A DNA stretch of 64,000 bases from Candidatus Latescibacterota bacterium (lineage in GTDB: Bacteria; Latescibacterota; UBA2968; UBA8231): NCBI GenBank assembly GCA_965197905.1, contig CBDAOB010000005.1:1984001-2048000 (forward strand), written 5' to 3'. A model generated the notes under the pieces. That model saw nothing but the letters and a program-made list of their open reading frames with translations, was not told where the DNA came from and made no database searches. How positions within the stretch are numbered: position 1 is the first letter of the stretch; each line of letters starts with the position of its first letter. This document shows positions 32,055-42,670 of this stretch, in pieces. Both the position numbers and the translations under genes were made by a program.

Positions 32055-33277
<1,223 letters not shown>

Positions 33278-33526
33278 TGAGCCTCCGGAGAACCCGGGGC
33301 GATTCAAAGACTCGGTTGGTCCGGGACTGTTTCACCTTCGATGTTCCAAGCGACTCATCTCACAATCCAAGCTCGAATCGAGGTTCGTTTGCTTGAAAAC
33401 GCGCCAATATACCCACATCGGCAGGTAACGCCAATGGCGACGGGACAGCTCTCGTCCTTGTGAAACGATTCCCCTCCCGCCATATTATACGCCGTTTGAA
33501 CAACAAGAGTCTTTTGGAAAGTTGGC

Positions 33527-34213
33527 ATGAATCCGAAAGAGGTCGCTGCCCTCAAAGCAGTTCAGTACGTCCGCGACGGCATGGTCGTTGGTCTTGGCAC
33601 AGGCTCCACTGCGGAGTTTGCCATCAGAGCGCTTGGCGAGCGGGTCGGGGAGGGTTTGAAAGTGCAGACGATTGCCACCTCGGACGAATCGGAGCGCCTG
33701 GCGCGAGAACTCTCCATCGAGGTAGTAACCCTCGAAGACGAGCCGGTAGTCGATCTCACCATTGACGGAGCCGACGAGGTCGATCCCAACCTCGATCTCA
33801 TCAAAGGACTGGGCGGCGCACTATTGCGCGAAAAAATCGTCGCGACGGCTAGCACGAGAGAGGTTATCATCGTGGACCCTTCCAAGAAGGTGCAAAAACT
33901 TGGAACCAGATCCCCGCTTCCCATCGAGGTGATCCCGTTCGCGTGGCCGTTAGTGCACCGAGAACTCATGGAGGGTGGATTGCGATCCAAACTCAGACCG
34001 GCTAAAGACGGACAGGCCACCTACGAGACGGACAATGGAAATCTTGTTCTGGATTGCGCCTTTCCTGATGGCATCGACGATCCCTTGCAGATGGAAAGCC
34101 GGATCAATCGCATGGCCGGTGTGATCGAGAACGGATTGTTCGTCGGCTTGACCCACATCGTCATCGTGGGCAACGAAGACGGAACATGTGAGATCCTGGA
34201 GAGGTCGACGTGA
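33527..34213 (+). CDS. rpiA: Ribose-5-phosphate isomerase A
   Basis: GLGTGSTA, DGADEVD, IKGLGGALLREKIVA, TDNGN. Confidence 0.97.
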   Translation: MNPKEVAALKAVQYVRDGMVVGLGTGSTAEFAIRALGERVGEGLKVQTIATSDESERLARELSIEVVTLEDEPVVDLTIDGADEVDPNLDLIKGLGGALLREKIVATASTREVIIVDPSKKVQKLGTRSPLPIEVIPFAWPLVHRELMEGGLRSKLRPAKDGQATYETDNGNLVLDCAFPDGIDDPLQMESRINRMAGVIENGLFVGLTHIVIVGNEDGTCEILERST

Positions 34214-35325
34214 GCGAGGCGAATCGAAACGATACACGGCGGCGCTTCCTGCGCAACGCCGGGCTCGCTACCACCGGGATCGTTGCCGCCGGGGGCCTCG
34301 AAAAGAGCGCGGCCATGGCGTCTGAGCCTTACACCTGGAAGATGGTCACCACCTGGCCGAAGAATTTTCCGGGCCTTGGAACCGGCGCCAATCACCTGGC
34401 TGAAACGATAGCGCAGATGTCGGGCGGGCAGTTGCGCATTCGAGTGTATGGCGCCGGAGAGCTAGTCCCCGCCCTCGGGGTATTCGATGCTGTCAGTCGC
34501 GGCACCGCCGAGATGGGCCATGCCGCATCCTATTACTGGAAGGGTAAACACGAAGCAACCCAGCTGTTCGCAGCTGTACCGTTCGGCTTGAACGCCATGG
34601 AGATGAACGCCTGGTTGTATTTTGGTGGCGCCCAGCAGCTATGGGACCGACTCTACGGCGATTTCAATCTCAAGGGATTCCCCGCCGGCAACACCGGCGT
34701 TCAGATGGGCGGTTGGTTCAATCGGGAGATCAACGAGATCGGCGATTTCAGCGGACTCAAGATTCGCATGCCCGGCCTTGGCGGTGAGGTCCTCCGCAGC
34801 CTGGGCGCCACCGTGCAGCTGCTTCCGGGGGGAGAGATCTTTCAGGCACTCAAGACCGGAGTCATCGACGCCACCGAGTGGGTGGGACCCGACAACGATC
34901 TGGCCTTCGGCTTTCAACAGGCTGCCAGATTCTACTACTGGCCCGGCTGGCACGAGCCCGGTACCACCATCGAGGCGATGGTAAACAGGGAAGCGTTCGA
35001 AAATCTCCCGGCCCATCTGCGTGCCGTGATCGAACGCGCCTGCCAGGCCGCCAACGACCACATGCTGGCAGAGTTCACAGCCAGAAACAGCGCCGCGCTG
35101 CAAACCCTCGTAAGCAAACACAAAGTCCAGCTGCGCCGTTTTCCCGATCCTGTGTTGAAGGCCCTGGGCTCGAAGGCCGCCCGCGTCGTCGAGGAGATTG
35201 CTGCCAGCGATCCTTTCTCCAAACAGGTGTACGATTCCTTCCAGAACTTCCGCAAAGATTCCGCGGGTTATACGCGCATCACCGAGCAGGCCTACTCCCA
35301 CGCTCGTGCCCTCACATTCGGATAG
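34210..35325 (+). CDS. dctP: TRAP transporter substrate-binding protein (TakP/keto-acid type, Tat signal)
   Basis: TRRRFL Tat motif, WKMVTTWPKNFPGLG, GNTGVQMGGWFNREI, PGWHEP. Confidence 0.92.
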   Translation: MSEANRNDTRRRFLRNAGLATTGIVAAGGLEKSAAMASEPYTWKMVTTWPKNFPGLGTGANHLAETIAQMSGGQLRIRVYGAGELVPALGVFDAVSRGTAEMGHAASYYWKGKHEATQLFAAVPFGLNAMEMNAWLYFGGAQQLWDRLYGDFNLKGFPAGNTGVQMGGWFNREINEIGDFSGLKIRMPGLGGEVLRSLGATVQLLPGGEIFQALKTGVIDATEWVGPDNDLAFGFQQAARFYYWPGWHEPGTTIEAMVNREAFENLPAHLRAVIERACQAANDHMLAEFTARNSAALQTLVSKHKVQLRRFPDPVLKALGSKAARVVEEIAASDPFSKQVYDSFQNFRKDSAGYTRITEQAYSHARALTFG

Positions 35326-35337
35326 ACAACCCGTACC

Positions 35338-35811
35338 TTGAGGGTCGCCGATAAATGGGTATCGCGCACCCTGCCGTGGCTTACGCTTGCCATGGTCCTG
35401 GTGACTTTCACGATCGTCATACTGCGGTACGGGTTCGAGCTGGGATGGGTCTGGATGCAAGAGATCGTGCTGTATATGCACGCTTTCGTTTTTCTTCTCG
35501 GTTCGGCCTACGCCCTGGGCCGCGACGCTCACGTTCGTGTCGACATCCTGTATCGCCCGCTGTCTGAACGGGGCAAGGCGGTGGTCGACGGGCTCGGCTC
35601 GCTCTTGCTGCTCATCCCAATCTGTATGGTGATTTTCCATCAAGCGTATCCGTACGTCATCGACTCCTGGCTCGTCTTCGAGGGTTCGAAAGACGGAGGC
35701 GGACTCGAAGCGGTCTTCCTGCTCAAGACCGGCATACTGCTGTTCTGTCTCCTGCTCTTTCTGCAGGCGCTGGCCATCTTGCGACGAACTGTTTCAACCC
35801 TTCGAAGGTGA
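35338..35811 (+). CDS. dctQ: TRAP transporter small permease
   Basis: Four TMs, HVRVDILY; start codon uncertain (TTG). Confidence 0.88.
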   Translation: MRVADKWVSRTLPWLTLAMVLVTFTIVILRYGFELGWVWMQEIVLYMHAFVFLLGSAYALGRDAHVRVDILYRPLSERGKAVVDGLGSLLLLIPICMVIFHQAYPYVIDSWLVFEGSKDGGGLEAVFLLKTGILLFCLLLFLQALAILRRTVSTLRR

Positions 35812-37208
35812 CGAGCGTGTCCGACTATCTCCCGTTGCTGATGTTCCTGGTTACCCTTGCCGTCCTGCTCTCCGGGTACCCGGTGGCATTCTGCCTCGCC
35901 GGAACCGCCCTGTTGTTCGCTGCCCTCGGCATTCTTGGCGGTCAGTTCGACGCCGCCTTCCTATCGGCGATCCCGCCGCGAATATTCGGCATCATGGCCA
36001 ACGAGACCCTGATCGCTGTACCGCTCTTCGTATTTATGGGAGTGGTGTTGGAACGGTCGAAGATCGCCGAGGATTTGCTGGACACCATGTCGCAGCTGTT
36101 CGGAGGATTGCGCGGCGGATTGGGAATCTCGGTCTGTCTAGTGGGGGGACTGTTGGCGGCCTCCACCGGCATCGTGGGCGCTACCGTCGTAACGATGGGG
36201 CTCATTTCGCTGCCCGCCATGTTGAAGAGACGCTACTCGCCTTCTCTCTCCTCCGGTATCATCTGTGCATCTGGAACCTTGGGACAGATCATTCCCCCCA
36301 GTATCGTCCTGGTGATCCTTGGAGATGTGATCAGCTCCGCCAATCAACAAGCGCAGCTCGACCTCGGTAATTTCTCGCCAACCGGTGTGTCTGTGGGAGA
36401 CTTGTTTTTGGGCGCCTTGGTGCCTGGGCTCCTCTTGATGTGTATGTATACCGGGTATGTCGTGGTTGTCGGTCAACTGCGGCCGCACCTGGTTCCGGCG
36501 TTGTCCGCCACCGATCGCGAGCCACTCGCGAGCCGCGCATTTCTACGCAAGCTTCTTTTGGTTCTGGCGCCTCCTCTCATCTTGATTGTGGGAGTGCTGG
36601 GTTCGATCCTCACCGGCATTGCCACCCCTACCGAAGCGGCTTCGGTGGGCGCGGTGGGTGCAATCCTGTTGTCGTTGCTCAAGGGAGAGCTCAACCGGGA
36701 CGTGTTGTCTCAGGTCATGCGTACGACGACCGAGATCAACACCATGGTCTTCACGATACTCATAGGAGCCAGCGTCTTCTCCCTGGTGTTTCGCGGGTAT
36801 GGAGGAGATTTAGTCGTGGAGGAGTTTCTGCAGGGCCTCGATGGAGGTGTTGCGGGTTCGTTCGTGGCGGTGATGGTGGCGATGTTCTTTCTCGGTTTTT
36901 TTCTGGATTTCTTCGAGATCATTTTTGTCGTGGTGCCGATCGTGGGTCCCATATTATTGAAGATGGGACTAGACCCGATCTGGCTCGGGGTGATGATAGC
37001 TGTCAACCTGCAGACGTCTTTCTTAACACCTCCGTTCGGTTTCGCCCTGTTCTATCTGCGTGGAGTGGCCCCCGGAGAGATCGATACACGGCAGATTTAC
37101 GCGGGAGTAATACCCTTCATATTGATGCAACTGGCGATGCTGCTGGCTTTGTGGATCTACCCCGAACTCGCTACCGCCCTGCCGAGAATGGCGTTCCAGT
37201 ATCCCTGA
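35808..37208 (+). CDS. dctM: TRAP transporter large permease
   Basis: GTLGQIIPPSIVL, TPTEAA, NLQTSFLTPPFGFALFYLRGV. Confidence 0.94.
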   Translation: MTSVSDYLPLLMFLVTLAVLLSGYPVAFCLAGTALLFAALGILGGQFDAAFLSAIPPRIFGIMANETLIAVPLFVFMGVVLERSKIAEDLLDTMSQLFGGLRGGLGISVCLVGGLLAASTGIVGATVVTMGLISLPAMLKRRYSPSLSSGIICASGTLGQIIPPSIVLVILGDVISSANQQAQLDLGNFSPTGVSVGDLFLGALVPGLLLMCMYTGYVVVVGQLRPHLVPALSATDREPLASRAFLRKLLLVLAPPLILIVGVLGSILTGIATPTEAASVGAVGAILLSLLKGELNRDVLSQVMRTTTEINTMVFTILIGASVFSLVFRGYGGDLVVEEFLQGLDGGVAGSFVAVMVAMFFLGFFLDFFEIIFVVVPIVGPILLKMGLDPIWLGVMIAVNLQTSFLTPPFGFALFYLRGVAPGEIDTRQIYAGVIPFILMQLAMLLALWIYPELATALPRMAFQYP

Positions 37209-37236: not shown

Positions 37237-37653
37237 TCACCCGAGCCCGACTCCGACCCCGTGATCGTATACCAGCTCACCGCCGAAGTAGGCGGCGATC
37301 CACAGAACCACGCTTGCTAGCAGCGCGGCAATAGCCCAAATACGGGGGTCGCGTCCCTGCAGCTGGAACGGAAGGCGCCCCAGGGCGATGAGCAGGCAAA
37401 GAAACAAAGACGCAGTTGCCCAGTCTTCGTGTCGTTCGATCAAGATGGCGATCGAGCCGTCTGCCCGATTGGATGCAGCCGCGTCATTGCCCGAGACCAC
37501 CGAGCCGATGGCGGACAGGGTGCCCGCAACCAGAACCGCAAAAGCCAGCGGGTGCCACTCCCGCTTCCCCAATGGGCCTGCGATCAGATCGATAGCCGCG
37601 CTGAGTGGCAGCAGGACGAGCGGAAAATGAACCAGTGCCGGATGTAGCTCCAT
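37237..37653 (-). CDS. DUF2231-family membrane protein
   Basis: LHPALVHFP, ERHE, GGELVYDHGVG; start set at ATG 37653. Confidence 0.8.
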   Translation of the reverse strand: MELHPALVHFPLVLLPLSAAIDLIAGPLGKREWHPLAFAVLVAGTLSAIGSVVSGNDAAASNRADGSIAILIERHEDWATASLFLCLLIALGRLPFQLQGRDPRIWAIAALLASVVLWIAAYFGGELVYDHGVGVGLG

Positions 37654-37791
37654 ATTGCTCACCAAATTTGTGGCCGCCAAGATAGACCGGCCTCGCTGGC
37701 GCTGCAAGGCAAGTTGACAGCTACACCGCTTCGCGATATCATTCGACCCTTCGATTCTGCCTCAGGGCAATCCACTACAGGTATAAGATCG

Positions 37792-39030
37792 TTGCGAATC
37801 CAGAAAGCGATCGCTATTCCCGCGCTGGGGGGTTACTACAACGAGGACCTCAAAGCCATCCGCTCCGGCGCAAAACCGGATGGCCTGTTCTTTGCCGATC
37901 CCCCACAGTCTCCAGGGTTTCGCTCCATTCGCCAGCCCAGCGAGGCCTCATCCATCTTACTCATTCTCGATGACCATCAGGTTGCCTTCGGCGATGCGCT
38001 CAGCGTCGACTATGCCGCCGCGGGGGGCCGCTCCGGGCTCTTCTCAGCGGAACGACAGGTTCCCCTGTTGAACGAGATATGCCAGACCCTCGTTGGTCGC
38101 AGGATCGGCGGGTTCGTCGCCATGTGCGAGGAGCTAGAGGAAACCGTCGCTCGAAACGGGCTGCACCAGCCAGGAGCCATGTTCGGTTTCTCACAGGCCA
38201 TCCTCCAGGCCGTGGCGATGAAGCGGAAGATCACCTGCGCCGAGGTGGTGGCCGATGAACTGGGCACCACCATCGGAGATGAACCCACTCCACTCGGCAT
38301 TCAGAGCGGGGAGTACCGCCGGGACGCCGTGGACAAAGCGATCGCAAAAGGTGTGGATGTCTTGCCCCACGGATTGATCAACGACCTGGAGACAACGGTC
38401 GGCACCGAGGGAGTAAAGCTGAAGGAATATGTGTTGTGGATCGCCGACCGCATACGGAAGTACGGGGTTGAGGGATACGCACCGCGGATCCACTTGGATC
38501 TCTATGGCCAGCTAGGCGCCACGTTCGATCACGACCTCGAGAGAATGACCAAGTTCTTGAGTGATCTCGAGCATACTGCCCGACCTTACCAGCTGTGCAT
38601 CGAGACACCGGTGCTGATGGAAAGCCTGGAGTCTCAGCTCGCGCTATTGACGACACTGCGCGCTGCGCTGGATAAATGCGGATCAACGGTTCAGCTTATA
38701 GTCGACGAATGGGCGAACGACCTGCACGACATCCGCCGTTTCCTCAATGCCGCAGCGGCGCATATGATCCACATCAAAACTCCCGATCTCGGTTCTCTTC
38801 ACCGCAGCGCCCAGGCCGTTCTCGAATGCCGCGCCGCCGGGGTCGCACCGGTTCTGGGCGGCTCTTGTGCCGAGACCGACCAGTCTGCGCGGCTGGTGGC
38901 CCACATTGCGCTTGCAACCTCACCGGAGTGGGTGCTGGCGCGCCCCGGGATGGGTGTGGACGAGGGTGTGCAGCTCCTGCACAACGAGATGGCTCGAACT
39001 CTAGCTCTCATCAAGGCGAGGACCCGATGA
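37792..39030 (+). CDS. Methylaspartate ammonia-lyase-like protein (enolase superfamily), divergent
   Basis: DVLPHGLIN, HLDLYG, IETP, VDEW, IKTPDLG, GGSC.ETD, LARPGMGVDEG; start set at TTG 37792 by similarity to the MAL N-terminus (ORF is open from 37714). Confidence 0.85.
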   Translation: MRIQKAIAIPALGGYYNEDLKAIRSGAKPDGLFFADPPQSPGFRSIRQPSEASSILLILDDHQVAFGDALSVDYAAAGGRSGLFSAERQVPLLNEICQTLVGRRIGGFVAMCEELEETVARNGLHQPGAMFGFSQAILQAVAMKRKITCAEVVADELGTTIGDEPTPLGIQSGEYRRDAVDKAIAKGVDVLPHGLINDLETTVGTEGVKLKEYVLWIADRIRKYGVEGYAPRIHLDLYGQLGATFDHDLERMTKFLSDLEHTARPYQLCIETPVLMESLESQLALLTTLRAALDKCGSTVQLIVDEWANDLHDIRRFLNAAAAHMIHIKTPDLGSLHRSAQAVLECRAAGVAPVLGGSCAETDQSARLVAHIALATSPEWVLARPGMGVDEGVQLLHNEMARTLALIKARTR

Positions 39031-40154
39031 GCGGCATCCTCCAGTGTGCTAGGTGCGGCTTTGATTGCGGACCCGAATCGACCAACTATTGCTGTCCCAA
39101 ATGCCAGAGCAAGCTGATCTACCGAGGGACAAAACCGAGGTTCCCGGAACGGTCGATTTGTCAGCGCAACGCCGATATGTGGCGTTATGCCGAGGCGCTC
39201 CCCCACTTCGAACAACGCGTCTCTCTCGGGGAAGGTTTTACTCCCCTTGTGCCGTTGACCGTCGACGGCATCCAGACCCTCGCCAAGTGCGAGTTCAGCC
39301 TGCCCAGCGGATCCTACAAGGATCGCGGCTCGGCCACCCTGATGAGCTACCTGCGGTCTATTGGCGCGGGGGAAGTCGTGGAGGATTCTTCGGGCAATGC
39401 CGGCGCCTCCCTGGCCGCTTATGCGGCGCGCGCGGGCATGCCGTTGAAGATCTTCTGCCCCGCCGACGCGCCGTCGGGAAAGCTTATGCAGATTCGCCTT
39501 GCCGGGGCCGACCTGGTCAAGGTGCCCGGTCCCAGACCGCGCGCGACCGAGGCGCTTTTGGAATACATAACCCAATACAATGCCGTCTACGCCTCCCACC
39601 TGTGGCACCCTATGTTCGTCGAAGGCATAAAAACCATCGCTTTCGAGCTCGCTGAGCAACTTTCCTGGCGCGCGCCGGCAGCCGTTGTTTTTCCGGTGGG
39701 AGCCGGGAGTATCCTGCTCGGCCTATATCGAGGATTTAAGGAGTTGTTGGAGGCGGACATGATTCCGTCACTCCCGATTCTCGTTGCCGTGCAAGCGGAG
39801 AAGAACTGTGCACTCCACAACGCTTTCGTAAACAATGCCGAGGAGATCTCTCAGATTCCCCCGCCCCAACCCAGCCTTGCCGATGGCCTCGCCGCCAGTC
39901 CAGGTGTTCACGGCCCCGAGCTACTTCAGGGGGTGCGGGAATCGCAGGGAACCGTCGTTACCGTTTCCGAGGCGGAGATAGCCGAGGGTGTCCATGCCCT
40001 GGGACGACTTGGTTTTTGTGTGGAGCCCACCACCGCTGTGGTTTGGCACGGAACGAGGCACGCCCGCGAGTTGTTGGCCGGTGAAGGTGCTGTGGTGGTG
40101 GTCCTGTCGGGCAATGGCCTGAAGGCGGCGCAGACCATCGACGGTATTCTTTGA
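39027..40154 (+). CDS. Threonine synthase-like PLP enzyme (fold type II) with N-terminal Zn ribbon
   Basis: CARC...CPKC, SLGEGFTPL, PSGSYKDRG (PLP Lys), EDSSGNAGASLAAY, VEPT, LSGNGLK; ATGA overlap with the upstream gene. Confidence 0.88.
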   Translation: MSGILQCARCGFDCGPESTNYCCPKCQSKLIYRGTKPRFPERSICQRNADMWRYAEALPHFEQRVSLGEGFTPLVPLTVDGIQTLAKCEFSLPSGSYKDRGSATLMSYLRSIGAGEVVEDSSGNAGASLAAYAARAGMPLKIFCPADAPSGKLMQIRLAGADLVKVPGPRPRATEALLEYITQYNAVYASHLWHPMFVEGIKTIAFELAEQLSWRAPAAVVFPVGAGSILLGLYRGFKELLEADMIPSLPILVAVQAEKNCALHNAFVNNAEEISQIPPPQPSLADGLAASPGVHGPELLQGVRESQGTVVTVSEAEIAEGVHALGRLGFCVEPTTAVVWHGTRHARELLAGEGAVVVVLSGNGLKAAQTIDGIL

Positions 40155-40167
40155 ATCGAGTCGTGGC

Positions 40168-40794
40168 ATGAAGCGAGTCCTCGTTCTTTTTGCACATCCG
40201 GCGTTTCAAAAGTCGAGGGCCAGCAAGATACTGATCGAGGCGTACCGCGGAATGGAAATGCTTACGTTTCGCGACCTCTACGAGGAATACCCCGATTTCA
40301 ATATCGATATAGCGATGGAGCAGCGCCTGTTGGTGGAGAACGATATCGTGATCCTCCATCACCCATTCTACTGGTATAGCAGCCCCGCGCTCTTGAAGGA
40401 GTGGCTCGACCTGGTTCTCGAAGTCGGGTTCGCCTACGGCAAAGGCGGCACGGCTCTTCAGGGAAAGAGTTTGCTCACCGTGATTACGACGGGAGGCAAT
40501 CTGGAGGCGTATCGGGAAGATGGCTACAATCGTTTCTCCATCCGCGAATTTCTGATTCCCTTCGAACAGACGGCCACCCTTTGCGGCATGACTTACCTGC
40601 CGCCGTTCGTCGCCTGCGGGATGCATTCCGCTCAGCCGGCTCAGTCGATGGAGGAGCACACCGCGTCGCTGCGACAGATTCTGATCGCACTGCGAGATGG
40701 TGGATTGGAGGTCGCCCAGTTGCTACGGTACACATTCCTGAACGAGGCCTTGAAACTTCTAAACAACGGAAGCAGGGACGAGCATGCACGGTGA
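40168..40794 (+). CDS. Kef ancillary NAD(P)H oxidoreductase (KefF/KefG)
   Basis: VLFAHP, DLYEEYPDFNID, HPFYWYSSPALLKEWLD, PFEQTA.LCGM. Confidence 0.92.
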   Translation: MKRVLVLFAHPAFQKSRASKILIEAYRGMEMLTFRDLYEEYPDFNIDIAMEQRLLVENDIVILHHPFYWYSSPALLKEWLDLVLEVGFAYGKGGTALQGKSLLTVITTGGNLEAYREDGYNRFSIREFLIPFEQTATLCGMTYLPPFVACGMHSAQPAQSMEEHTASLRQILIALRDGGLEVAQLLRYTFLNEALKLLNNGSRDEHAR

Positions 40795-42670
40795 CGGATT
40801 TTTCTATCAAGCTTTCGTCTATCTGTTGGCCGCAGTGGTTTCGGTCCCCATCGCCAAGAAGCTTGGCCTCGGCTCGGTCCTTGGCTACCTGACTGCCGGC
40901 GTCGTGATCGGTCCATTCGCCCTTGGTTTGGTTGGAGCCGAAGGACAGGATGTGATGCACTTCGCCGAATTCGGCGTCGTCATGATGTTGTTTCTGGTCG
41001 GCCTGGAGTTGCAGCCATCTCTACTGTGGAAGCTGAAAGCTCCCATCCTGGGTATGGGAGGGCTTCAGGTAGGCGCAACCGCCGGTGTCATCGCGGTGGT
41101 CGGATTGGCACTTGGGTTCGCGTGGCAAGTAACAGTTGCCGTCGGGTTGATCCTGGCCTTGTCTTCCACCGCGATCGTGCTCCAGAGTCTGGCCGAAAAA
41201 GGTTTGATGAAAACTCCTGGAGGTGAGCGTTGTTTCTCAGTCCTCCTGTTCCAGGACATCTCGGTCATCCCCGTGTTGGCGATTCTCCCCATGCTCGCCG
41301 TGAGCACCATCGCTGGCGCCGACGGCAGTCATGACGGCATTGGCGCTTTGCCCGGGTGGCAACAGGCGTTGATCGTAGCGGCACTTATCGGACTCATCGT
41401 CGTGGGCGGCAAGCTTCTGGTACGCCCGGCTTTTCGATTGATCGCCGCCACCCGGTTGCGAGAGGTCTTCACCGCGGCTGCCCTTCTGCTGGTTATCGGC
41501 ATCGCCCTCGCCATGCAAAAGGTTGGGCTTTCTCCTGCCCTTGGCACCTTCCTCGCGGGAGTGGTGCTTGCCGAAAGCGAATATCGACACGAGTTGGAAT
41601 CGGATATCGAGCCGTTCAAAGGGCTCCTTCTGGGGCTCTTCTTCATCGCCGTCGGCGCGAGTATCGACTTCACGTTCTTGCGCGAGAACCCGCAATTGGT
41701 GACCCAGCTGGTTGTCGGGCTGGTGGCTGTGAAGTTGCTCGTACTCGCAGTGGTCGGGCGTCTGTTCCGACTCGAGTGGTCGCAGAATTTCCTGTTCACC
41801 TTCGCCCTTGCCCAGGGAGGAGAGTTCGCCTTCGTCCTGTTTTCTTTTGCGACCCAGAATGGGGTGCTTTCCCCGGAGATCGCCAACCCGCTTGTCGCTA
41901 CGGTAGCACTTTCCATGGCGACCACGCCGCTGCTCATGATCCTGAACGAGAAGTTTATCCAGCCCCGCTTCGCCGTTCCAAAACAGCAGGAAGCAGACCT
42001 CATCGAGGAACAGCACCCGGTGATCATCGCCGGATACGGTCGTTTTGGCCACATCGTTGGCCGCATGCTCAAAGCGAATGGGATCAACGCAACCGTGTTG
42101 GATCTGGACCCGGAGCAGATCGAAACCTTGGCCCGCTTCGGCATGAAGGTGTTTTACGGCGATGCAGCACGCCTAGACCTGTTGCACACCGCCGGATTGG
42201 ACAGGGCGAAGCTGCTTATTCTGGCCATCGACGATCCGGAAAAGTGCAATGGGTTGGTGGAGGCTGTGCGCCAGAGGCACCCCGAAATCGTGATCCTTGC
42301 TCGAGCGCATAGTTTGCACCACGCCTACGAGCTCACCCAAACCGGCGCCGACCAGGTCTTTCGAGAGACCCTGGACAGCGCCATAACGATGGGGGAAGAA
42401 GCCCTGAAGGCCGTCGGATTCCGTTCCTACCAAGCGCACCGTGCCGGCCGGATCTTCCGGAAACACGAACGGACGGCCATGGGGTCTCTGTTCAATTTGT
42501 GGGCGGAGGGAGAGTCGTTCTGGGATCATGCCCGTGAGCACGTGAGCGAGCTGGAGCGCATGATGCAGCAGGATCAACTCGACTTTGCCGAGGCAATGGA
42601 TCACGCCTGGGAAGCCGCCTCGCCGGAAACCGAAGAGGGTTCAGACGGCTCTACCGCTCCGTCTTCTTGA
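40784..42670 (+). CDS. Glutathione-regulated K+ efflux antiporter (KefB/KefC, CPA2 + KTN)
   Basis: [52 protein letters not shown]. Confidence 0.94.

What the first reader, a model, noticed from the sequence alone, without database searches (positions are those of the whole stretch)
37792..40154. Remodelled methylaspartate ammonia-lyase coupled to a threonine-synthase-like enzyme: candidate new amino-acid pathway
Seen: the two genes overlap (ATGA) and no glutamate mutase gene is in the window. I aligned by eye to Clostridium tetanomorphum MAL as I recall it. The metal ligands (D238, E273, D307), the base K331 and H194 appear kept. Pocket residues differ: Q73 to D (VDYAAAGGR), F170 to G (LGIQSG), Q329 to H (HIKTPDLG) and Y356 to V (PVLGGSC). 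Known: Q73, F170 and Y356 line the amine pocket, and Q73 substitution broadens amine scope in engineered MAL. Inference: a natural C-N lyase for a bulkier or cationic N-substituted aspartate-like substrate, working with a PLP elimination/replacement enzyme. The upstream TRAP transporter may or may not be linked.
Basis: partly seen in the sequence, partly recalled or inferred. Interest (0 to 1): 0.7.

Follow-up and report, generated by a model that had tools for sequence, protein, structure and literature searches.

The report
Methylaspartase-like lyase with amidohydrolase partner
This gene is labelled methylaspartate ammonia-lyase but belongs to an unstudied branch with a changed substrate pocket that travels with one particular amide-splitting enzyme, not with the neighbouring threonine-synthase-like gene, so the two likely break down a modified aspartate that is still unidentified.

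Summary
The gene at 37792-39030 is MAL-like: it keeps the Mg ligands, K331, H194 and Q172, and carries Q73D, F170G, Q329H and Y356V. It overlaps a thrC-like gene (ATGA), and no glutamate mutase E was found in the 91%-complete genome. The proposed coupling is not supported. The thrC-like gene is in 55 of 76 family genomes, the lyase in 4, and its upstream neighbour varies. The lyase belongs to a well-supported clade of 75 uncultured-microbe proteins (Y356I/V in all, Q329N/H in 73). Position 73 is variable there, so the 'cationic substrate' reading is weak. The consistent partner is one binuclear amidohydrolase family. It is present in all 7 lyase-bearing genomes tested and in 1 of 270 without the lyase; it is often the adjacent gene and lies on another contig here. 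Most likely the amidohydrolase frees a modified aspartate and the lyase eliminates its amine; the substrate is unknown. The scan has noted other remodelled MAL branches on other DNA, but a sequence look-up found none for this clade. New variant of a known kind.

The parts
37792..39030 (+). MAL-like lyase of the uncharacterised clade 'X' (412 aa). In its own numbering: D73, G169, Q171, H193, D236, E271, D305, H327, K329, V354, S358, C359, L382, R384.
   Evidence: dN/dS 0.14 against the same-genus copy in L001
37714..37742 (+). sigma70-like promoter match (TTGACA-17-TATCAT, 11 of 12) about 50 nt before the lyase start; both hexamers are kept in L001
   Evidence: (1 found, 0.2 expected); a consensus match only
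39027..40154 (+). Threonine-synthase-like PLP enzyme with an N-terminal CxxC..CxxC motif. A family-wide gene, probably co-transcribed here but not the lyase's functional partner.
37237..37707 (-). DUF2231 membrane protein; part of the family's gene block at this site
34210..37208 (+). TRAP transporter dctPQM; present at this site in relatives that lack the lyase, so not shown to be linked

Best explanation
The gene encodes a Mg-binding, MAL-fold enzyme with a changed substrate pocket that likely acts as the second step of a two-enzyme breakdown module: a co-inherited binuclear amidohydrolase (encoded elsewhere in this genome, G000:C3:593275-594492) would free a modified aspartate from an N-acyl or peptide bond, and the lyase would then eliminate its amine. 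Predicted chemistry, by analogy with MAL: K331 removes the proton next to the Mg-bound carboxylate, and S360/C361 hold the far carboxylate. Q172 holds the leaving nitrogen, and a fumarate-type diacid is released. I lean to an N-alkyl or cyclic (imino) aspartate that gives fumarate or a ring-opened fumarate, over a C3-substituted aspartate (about 3:2). The thrC-like gene is an old family gene that the lyase came to abut, likely after the genes between them were lost or moved. Shown: residues, clade, gene distributions, adjacency. Inferred: the reaction, the order of steps and the substrate class.
For: Catalytic core invariant in 75 of 75 clade proteins (Q172, H194, D238, E273, D307, K331), while Y356 is I/V in 75 of 75, Q329 is N/H in 73 of 75 and F170 is never F. 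The clade is one side of a branch with SH-aLRT 100 (quick tree, 65 rows). A model of the 92%-identical P0003 matches 1KKO at TM 0.96. Amidohydrolase (AH1) co-occurrence in the window's family: lyase in 4 of 76, AH1 in 5 of 76, including all 4. In a Planctomycetota family sample: lyase in 3 of 201 and AH1 in the same 3. In a class sample: 1 of 401 for both, the same genome. AH1 is directly upstream of the lyase in G005, G569, G635 and L026. Ten longest-contig lengths are shared between the 74 clade hits and 120 AH1 hits, against 0 for 46 non-clade MAL hits (0.3 expected, indirect). AH1 keeps HxH, K, H, H and D in 6 of 6 aligned copies (ligand roles recalled). Its closest solved relatives are carboxypeptidase, prolidase and ochratoxinase-type amidases, and its best NCBIfam hit is Xaa-Pro dipeptidase, below cut-off. 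A second amidase (C45) is near the lyase in 8 of 28 loci and an Fe-S fumarate/tartrate-type hydro-lyase pair in 3. Engineered Q73A accepts alkylamines (PMC7586795, passages), and 32 of 75 clade members have A, T, C or S there.
Against: No activity data. The co-occurrence rests on few independent lineages (two Latescibacterota-type genera and three Planctomycetota genomes), so the Fisher p-values overstate it. G015 has AH1 but no MAL match (92% complete), and the AH1 family has at least 120 members at 49% identity or more, so AH1 may also work without the lyase. AH1 was seen in only 6 of 28 clade loci; a MetE-II-like gene is the commonest neighbour (12 of 28), yet no orthologue of it was found in the lyase-bearing genomes of the window's family. 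In the large samples only 4 to 9 candidates per genome were scored. Lack of a mutase proves little: Carboxydothermus MAL has no adjacent mutase and is a normal MAL (PMC3310078, passages). The window's sub-branch (D73/G170/H329/V356) differs from the clade majority (E or A / Y or N / N / I) and sits on a long branch, so its substrate may differ from the majority's.
Confidence: 0.58

Rival explanations
1. It is still a 3-methylaspartate (or erythro-isomer, or aspartate) ammonia-lyase with a rebuilt but equivalent pocket, scavenging methylaspartate that AH1 frees from peptides or conjugates.
For: Scores above the TIGR01502 equivalog cut-off (428 against 286). Mutase-less MALs exist: Carboxydothermus, and rhizobial plasmid copies next to peptidases, a CoA transferase, a CoA-ester lyase and fumarate hydratase. 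L384, Q172 and C361 are kept, and T360S is neutral in CaMAL.
Against: The mutase-less rhizobial and Haloferax copies keep Q73, Q329 and Y356, and ChMAL keeps 9 of 10 site residues; this enzyme changes four. Y356A raises Km. No CoA transferase came up among the 52 neighbour proteins that I picked from clade loci for a Pfam scan.
Confidence: 0.14
2. The leaving group is not an amine. The enzyme would cleave a C-S or C-O bond of a 2-substituted succinate (for example a succinated thiol or a sulfonate), with the MetE-II-like Zn enzyme handling the released thiol.
For: A highly conserved MetE-II-like protein (77% mean column identity; HxC..C motifs) is the commonest neighbour (12 of 28 loci). Q73, which bonds to the amine through water, is not conserved.
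Against: Q172, the direct amine contact, is invariant (75 of 75). No MetE-like orthologue was found in the window's genome (best 36%) or in G001, G002 and G005 (199-377 bits against over 620 for orthologues).
Confidence: 0.13
3. One reading: the lyase and the overlapping threonine-synthase-like PLP enzyme form one new amino-acid pathway fed by the TRAP transporter.
For: The stop and start overlap in all three genomes of the genus. In G005 the two genes lie 3 kb apart on one strand. Both are under purifying selection (dN/dS 0.14 and 0.15). The PLP enzyme is not a plain ThrC, so its substrate is open.
Against: The thrC-like gene is in 55 of 76 family genomes, 51 of them without the lyase (Fisher p 0.57). 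In 15 lyase-free loci its upstream neighbour is ilvD (7), another amidohydrolase (3), DUF2231 (3) or something else (2). It is absent from 22 of 22 clade loci outside this lineage (six of these have under 2.6 kb downstream). G168 has no match at E 1e-20 and G569 only 33-35% paralogues.
Confidence: 0.07
4. The enzyme is a racemase or epimerase of an aspartate derivative or N-acyl amino acid that prepares the substrate for AH1, not a lyase.
For: It keeps both stereospecific bases, K331 and H194 (roles from PMC3310078). Pairing of enolase-superfamily N-acyl amino acid racemases with amidohydrolases is recalled from the literature, not checked here.
Against: Fold and sequence are MAL-type, far from the MLE-type racemases (TM 0.96 against 0.73 or less). 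The hydro-lyase neighbours in 3 loci suit an unsaturated diacid product.
Confidence: 0.08

Closest known systems
3-Methylaspartate ammonia-lyase, EC 4.3.1.2 (C. tetanomorphum 1KCZ, C. amalonaticus 1KKO/1KKR; TIGR01502)
   Same: Fold (TM 0.93-0.96, 42-43% identity for the model of P0003); Mg ligands; K331, H194, Q172, C361, L384.
   Different: Q73D, F170G, Q329H, Y356V; a separate clade; no glutamate mutase E found; co-inherited amidohydrolase.
Engineered CtMAL-Q73A (3ZVH) and L384A (3ZVI)
   Same: Q73 is lost in 66 of 74 clade members with a residue there, and Q73A widens amine scope (PMC7586795).
   Different: Natural enzyme; D rather than A at 73 in this gene; L384 kept; three further pocket changes.
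Mutase-less MALs of Carboxydothermus hydrogenoformans, rhizobial plasmids and Haloferax
   Same: No adjacent glutamate mutase.
   Different: They keep Q73, Q329 and Y356. The rhizobial ones sit with a CoA transferase, a CoA-ester lyase and fumarate hydratase.
Threonine synthase ThrC (PDB 6CGQ; TIGR00260, PRK06450 and PRK08197 groups), for the second gene
   Same: Fold-type II PLP enzyme with the Schiff-base lysine motif GSYKDRG.
   Different: Below every threonine-synthase cut-off; the NSVNPYRLEG segment reads SHLWHPMFVEG. The genome holds a copy with the canonical motifs elsewhere (L013).
Carboxypeptidase/prolidase group of binuclear amidohydrolases (Cc2672 3MTW, 3BE7, ochratoxinase), for the partner AH1
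   Same: Profile match E 3e-46 to 6e-27; the metal-ligand pattern is kept.
   Different: Far below the Xaa-Pro dipeptidase cut-off (200 against 500 bits); an uncharacterised family of its own.

Membership tests
3-methylaspartate ammonia-lyase (EC 4.3.1.2) | Score above the TIGR01502 cut-off; MAAL_N and MAAL_C domains | tested here: met
   428.4 against 286.15 bits; Pfam
3-methylaspartate ammonia-lyase (EC 4.3.1.2) | MAL fold | tested here: met
   Model of P0003 (92% identical; not the window protein itself), pLDDT 92, TM 0.96 to 1KKO
3-methylaspartate ammonia-lyase (EC 4.3.1.2) | Mg ligands D238, E273, D307 and bases K331, H194 | tested here: met
3-methylaspartate ammonia-lyase (EC 4.3.1.2) | Q329 stabilising the enolate | tested here: not met
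   H here; N in 66, H in 7, Q in 2 of 75 clade members; Q in 46 of 46 other hits. H also occurs in many other MAL-family clusters.
3-methylaspartate ammonia-lyase (EC 4.3.1.2) | 3-methyl pocket F170/Y356/L384 | tested here: not met
   G, V, L; pocket assignment from PMC7241714
3-methylaspartate ammonia-lyase (EC 4.3.1.2) | Amine contacts Q73 and Q172 | tested here: not met
   Q172 kept, Q73 is D
3-methylaspartate ammonia-lyase (EC 4.3.1.2) | Far-carboxylate site T360/C361 | tested here: met
   S/C; T360S is natural in ChMAL and neutral in CaMAL
3-methylaspartate ammonia-lyase (EC 4.3.1.2) | Turns 3-methylaspartate into mesaconate | not testable with these tools
   needs an assay
Glutamate mutase-MAL (mesaconate) pathway | Glutamate mutase E subunit in the genome | tested here: not met
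   Not found in G000, G001, G002, G005, G168 or G569 (genomes incomplete); found in G023 beside a canonical MAL
Threonine synthase ThrC (second gene) | Score above a threonine-synthase cut-off | tested here: not met
   245 against 301, 230 against 303, 111 against 167 bits
Threonine synthase ThrC (second gene) | PLP lysine motif | tested here: met
   GSYKDRG
Threonine synthase ThrC (second gene) | Arg of the NSVNPYRLEG segment (phosphate binding; role recalled) | tested here: not met
   F or M at the aligned place in the window protein; none of 9 orthologues aligned has R there
Cysteate synthase (second gene) | TIGR03844 cut-off | tested here: not met
   39 against 324.9 bits for the G005 orthologue; not among the best 25 families listed for the window protein

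The most novel reading that the evidence does not exclude
A natural amine-lyase of the MAL fold that, with a prolidase-like amidohydrolase, breaks down an N-alkyl or cyclic aspartate (for example N-methylaspartate or a ring imino-diacid) in uncultured marine and soil bacteria. It would be a second natural reaction in the MAL subgroup and a ready-made catalyst for N-substituted aspartates.
Probability: 0.35. Interest if true: 0.72.

Novelty: new variant of a known kind. Interest (0 to 1): 0.5.

Why it matters
A curated table of the enolase superfamily lists one family, MAL, in the MAL subgroup (PMC5368075, passages). These proteins pass the curated cut-off and are named 'methylaspartate ammonia-lyase' by their sources. 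If the clade does another reaction, those annotations and the metabolic models built on them are wrong. The wider family also looks diverse: only 4 of 81 aligned proteins (78 full-length representatives of 50% clusters plus 3 references) show the exact Q/F/Q/Y pocket, and 2 more show F/Q/Y but lack position 73. The amidohydrolase partner makes the question testable with two enzymes. MAL variants with wider amine scope are sought as biocatalysts (PMC7586795).

Tried and rejected
Coupling to the thrC-like gene and to the TRAP transporter: rejected on distribution. 'Cationic substrate' from Q73D: rejected as a clade property. An upstream start at 37714: that TTG is the -35 box of the promoter-like site, and relatives start at 37792. 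T360S, N362A, K386R and G274 changes as markers of new function: dropped because a Haloferax MAL has them too. A cultured member of the clade: none among 18 plasmid records (all 37-43% identity). Atlas look-ups of two unknown neighbours (L028:10425-11450, L030:8303-8905) gave no named family. Expression: no RNA holder listed. Literature: nine searches with MAL terms showed no paper describing this clade, its amidohydrolase partner or a natural N-alkylaspartate lyase of this fold. The library is open-access only, and most hits were seen as listings. The mutagenesis paper of Raj and Poelarends 2013 was not held and Raj 2012 was not read, so I quote no kinetics for Q73, F170 or Q329 mutants. No supplements were read. 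The tree is the quick one (SH-aLRT only). It does not join the window's branch with the syntenic G005 copy, and I ran no clade test. No complex prediction was run because no binding is claimed.
Full report
Observation. The window holds a 412-aa MAL-like gene at 37792-39030, followed with an ATGA overlap by a 375-aa PLP enzyme at 39027-40154. The first scores 428 bits on TIGR01502 (cut-off 286) and aligns over its whole length with 1KCZ and 1KKO. A model of a 92%-identical relative superposes on 1KKO at TM 0.96. No glutamate mutase E subunit was found in the genome (91% complete). According to passages of PMC7241714, F170, Y356 and L384 hold the 3-methyl group, Q73 and Q172 contact the amine, and Q329 and H194 stabilise the enolate. 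The changes therefore touch the methyl pocket, the amine site and the enolate site. The genome's genus includes a record titled Candidatus Latescibacterota (L001; the same place as G002). Another member of the genus is titled Gemmatimonadaceae (L004).

The enzyme belongs to a clade. Of the 120 best hits listed (1998 found), 74 share a signature with the window protein. I defined this set by that signature and by identity (46-92%). Among these 75 proteins Q172, H194, D238, E273, D307 and K331 are invariant, Y356 is I (72) or V (3), Q329 is N (66), H (7) or Q (2), and F170 is Y (38), N (30), G (6) or Q (1). K386 is R in all 75. Position 73 varies: E 29, A 18, Q 8, T 7, C 6, D 5, S 1, gap 1. The other 46 hits all keep Q73 and Q329. 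In a quick tree of 65 chosen rows the 31 clade rows form one side of a branch with SH-aLRT 100. A profile search of all 50% clusters gives one representative at 685 bits and the next at 473. Members with a label come from Latescibacterota-type, Planctomycetota and Spirochaetaceae genomes. None of 18 plasmid records is a member. The gene is under purifying selection like its neighbours (dN/dS 0.14 against 0.09-0.15). As controls, mutase-less MALs from rhizobia and Haloferax keep Q73, Q329 and Y356. Carboxydothermus MAL has no adjacent mutase, keeps 9 of 10 site residues and works as a MAL (PMC3310078, passages). So the missing mutase counts for little, and the pocket changes carry the argument.

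The threonine-synthase-like gene is not the partner. Its orthologue is in 55 of 76 genomes of the family. The lyase is in 4: G000, G001, G002 and G005, also 4 of 168 in the phylum; a fifth hit, G023, is a canonical MAL beside a mutase. I fetched 15 of the 51 lyase-free loci, spread over genera. They show a shared block: rpiA, TRAP, DUF2231 on the other strand, optionally an amidohydrolase and ilvD, the thrC-like gene, then OYE, lgt and a fatty-acyl reductase on the other strand. The gene just upstream of the thrC-like gene is ilvD in 7, the amidohydrolase in 3, DUF2231 in 3 and something else in 2, and the TRAP genes are there in 4. In G005 the order is DUF2231, amidohydrolase AH1, lyase, a second amidohydrolase, ilvD, thrC-like. 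The simplest reading, an inference, is that AH1 and the lyase entered this block together and that in the window's genus the genes between moved or were lost, leaving the overlap. Among 28 clade loci (several are near-duplicates) the thrC-like gene appears in 5, all of this lineage, and in 0 of 22 from elsewhere (six are short downstream). Two Planctomycetota genomes with the lyase have no orthologue. The PLP enzyme is itself odd: it is below all ThrC cut-offs and lacks the Arg of the NSVNPYRLEG segment, while a canonical-looking ThrC exists elsewhere in the genome. Its function is open but separate. A strong sigma70-like match lies at 37714-37742, behind the opposite-strand DUF2231 gene, so the TRAP genes are unlikely to share the transcript.

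The partner is an amidohydrolase. AH1 is found in 5 of 76 family genomes: all four with the lyase, plus G015, which has no MAL match. In the window's genome it lies at C3:593275-594492 (58-59% identical to the G005 copy). In a sample of 201 genomes of a Planctomycetota family the lyase is in 3 and AH1 in the same 3. In 401 genomes of that class both occur once, in the same genome, on different contigs. Together this is 7 of 7 lyase genomes with AH1 and 1 of 270 without, in the two family sets. AH1 directly precedes the lyase in G005, L026, G569 and G635; the last two read MetE-like, AH1, lyase, C45 amidase. Ten contig lengths are shared between the clade and AH1 hit lists, against none for the other MAL hits, which is indirect support for further linkage. 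Kin are not independent, and only a handful of lineages stand behind these counts. AH1 keeps the HxH, K, H, H, D pattern of binuclear amidohydrolases (roles recalled). Its nearest solved relatives are carboxypeptidases, prolidases and ochratoxin amidases. Other recurring neighbours are a conserved MetE-II-like protein (12 of 28 loci), C45 (8), PhyH dioxygenases (4, one fused to the lyase in P0067) and an Fe-S hydro-lyase pair (3). Orthologues of the MetE-like and C45 proteins were not found in the window's genome, and the MetE-like one was not found in G001, G002 or G005. The minimal unit therefore appears to be AH1 plus the lyase.

Mechanism. Shown: the intact Mg and base residues, the kept far-carboxylate site (S360/C361), the kept amine contact Q172, the changed pocket, and co-inheritance with an amidase. 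Inferred: AH1 hydrolyses an N-acyl or peptide bond and frees an aspartate derivative, and the lyase removes the C3 proton and expels the amine to give a fumarate-type diacid. An N-alkyl or cyclic aspartate is favoured for three reasons. Q73 is lost in most members, as in the engineered amine-promiscuous Q73A (PMC7586795, passages). AH1's best NCBIfam hit is a prolidase. Most loci show no gene for handling a branched product, which suits fumarate. A C3-substituted aspartate is the alternative, since F170 and Y356 shape the methyl pocket and three loci carry their own hydro-lyase.

Comparison and novelty. It works like MAL but fails three of the pocket features, so I do not file it as EC 4.3.1.2. 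Nine literature searches (open-access library only) showed no description of this clade. Of PMC7241714 I read the first of seven parts and passages; of bioRxiv 583088, PMC10992142, PMC7586795, PMC3310078, PMC6946804, PMC5368075 and PMC7246345 I read passages; I read no supplements. Remodelled pockets are common across the MAL family, and a second such clade turned up here (54 loci). The scan has noted other remodelled MAL branches on other DNA (AI notes, not checked), while sequence look-ups for this clade found none. This is one of several unstudied MAL branches, distinguished by a well-supported enzyme partner. Verdict: new variant of a known kind, interest 0.5.

Noticed in passing
L040-L101 (54 loci, e.g. 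L041, L079, L088): A second uncharacterised MAL-like clade (F170H, Y356 mostly F, Q73 A/E/S, about 45-aa insert; SH-aLRT 100). Neighbours: ABC transporter genes, a CBS protein, a Zn alcohol dehydrogenase, a PRK07475 protein, a Cys/Met PLP lyase, and an unknown 337-aa gene in 24 loci.
   Followed up: partly
L033:1395-3527 (P0067): A PhyH-type dioxygenase fused to the N-terminus of a clade lyase; the two are separate neighbours in L030, L023 and L024.
   Followed up: partly
window 39027-40154 and 54 relatives: A family-wide threonine-synthase-like enzyme that lacks the ThrC Arg motif and often follows ilvD and an amidohydrolase; function unexplained.
   Followed up: partly
L187:12034-13086, L028:8288-9307, L188:9405-10469: A tightly conserved MetE-II-like family (77% mean column identity) below all methionine-synthase cut-offs. 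In G015 it sits after genes that look like an aminotransferase and a gamma-glutamyltransferase (by eye), without the lyase.
   Followed up: partly
P0250-P0398: MAL-family representatives at 50% clusters show dozens of different pocket combinations, such as S/H/H/L, S/Q/H/L and I/L/Q/C at positions 73, 170, 329 and 356.
   Followed up: no
window 32055-33280: An IS3-type transposase pair (read by eye) between a glycosyltransferase and rpiA, absent from the same place in L001.
   Followed up: no
window 40168-42670: A kefF-kefC-like pair after the thrC-like gene; present in L001, only a remnant in G001.
   Followed up: no
L160, L162 (rhizobial plasmids): Mutase-less MAL (F170Y only among the four pocket positions) with a CoA transferase, a CoA-ester lyase and fumarate hydratase, in one case next to peptidases: looks like a methylaspartate-scavenging unit.
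   Followed up: no
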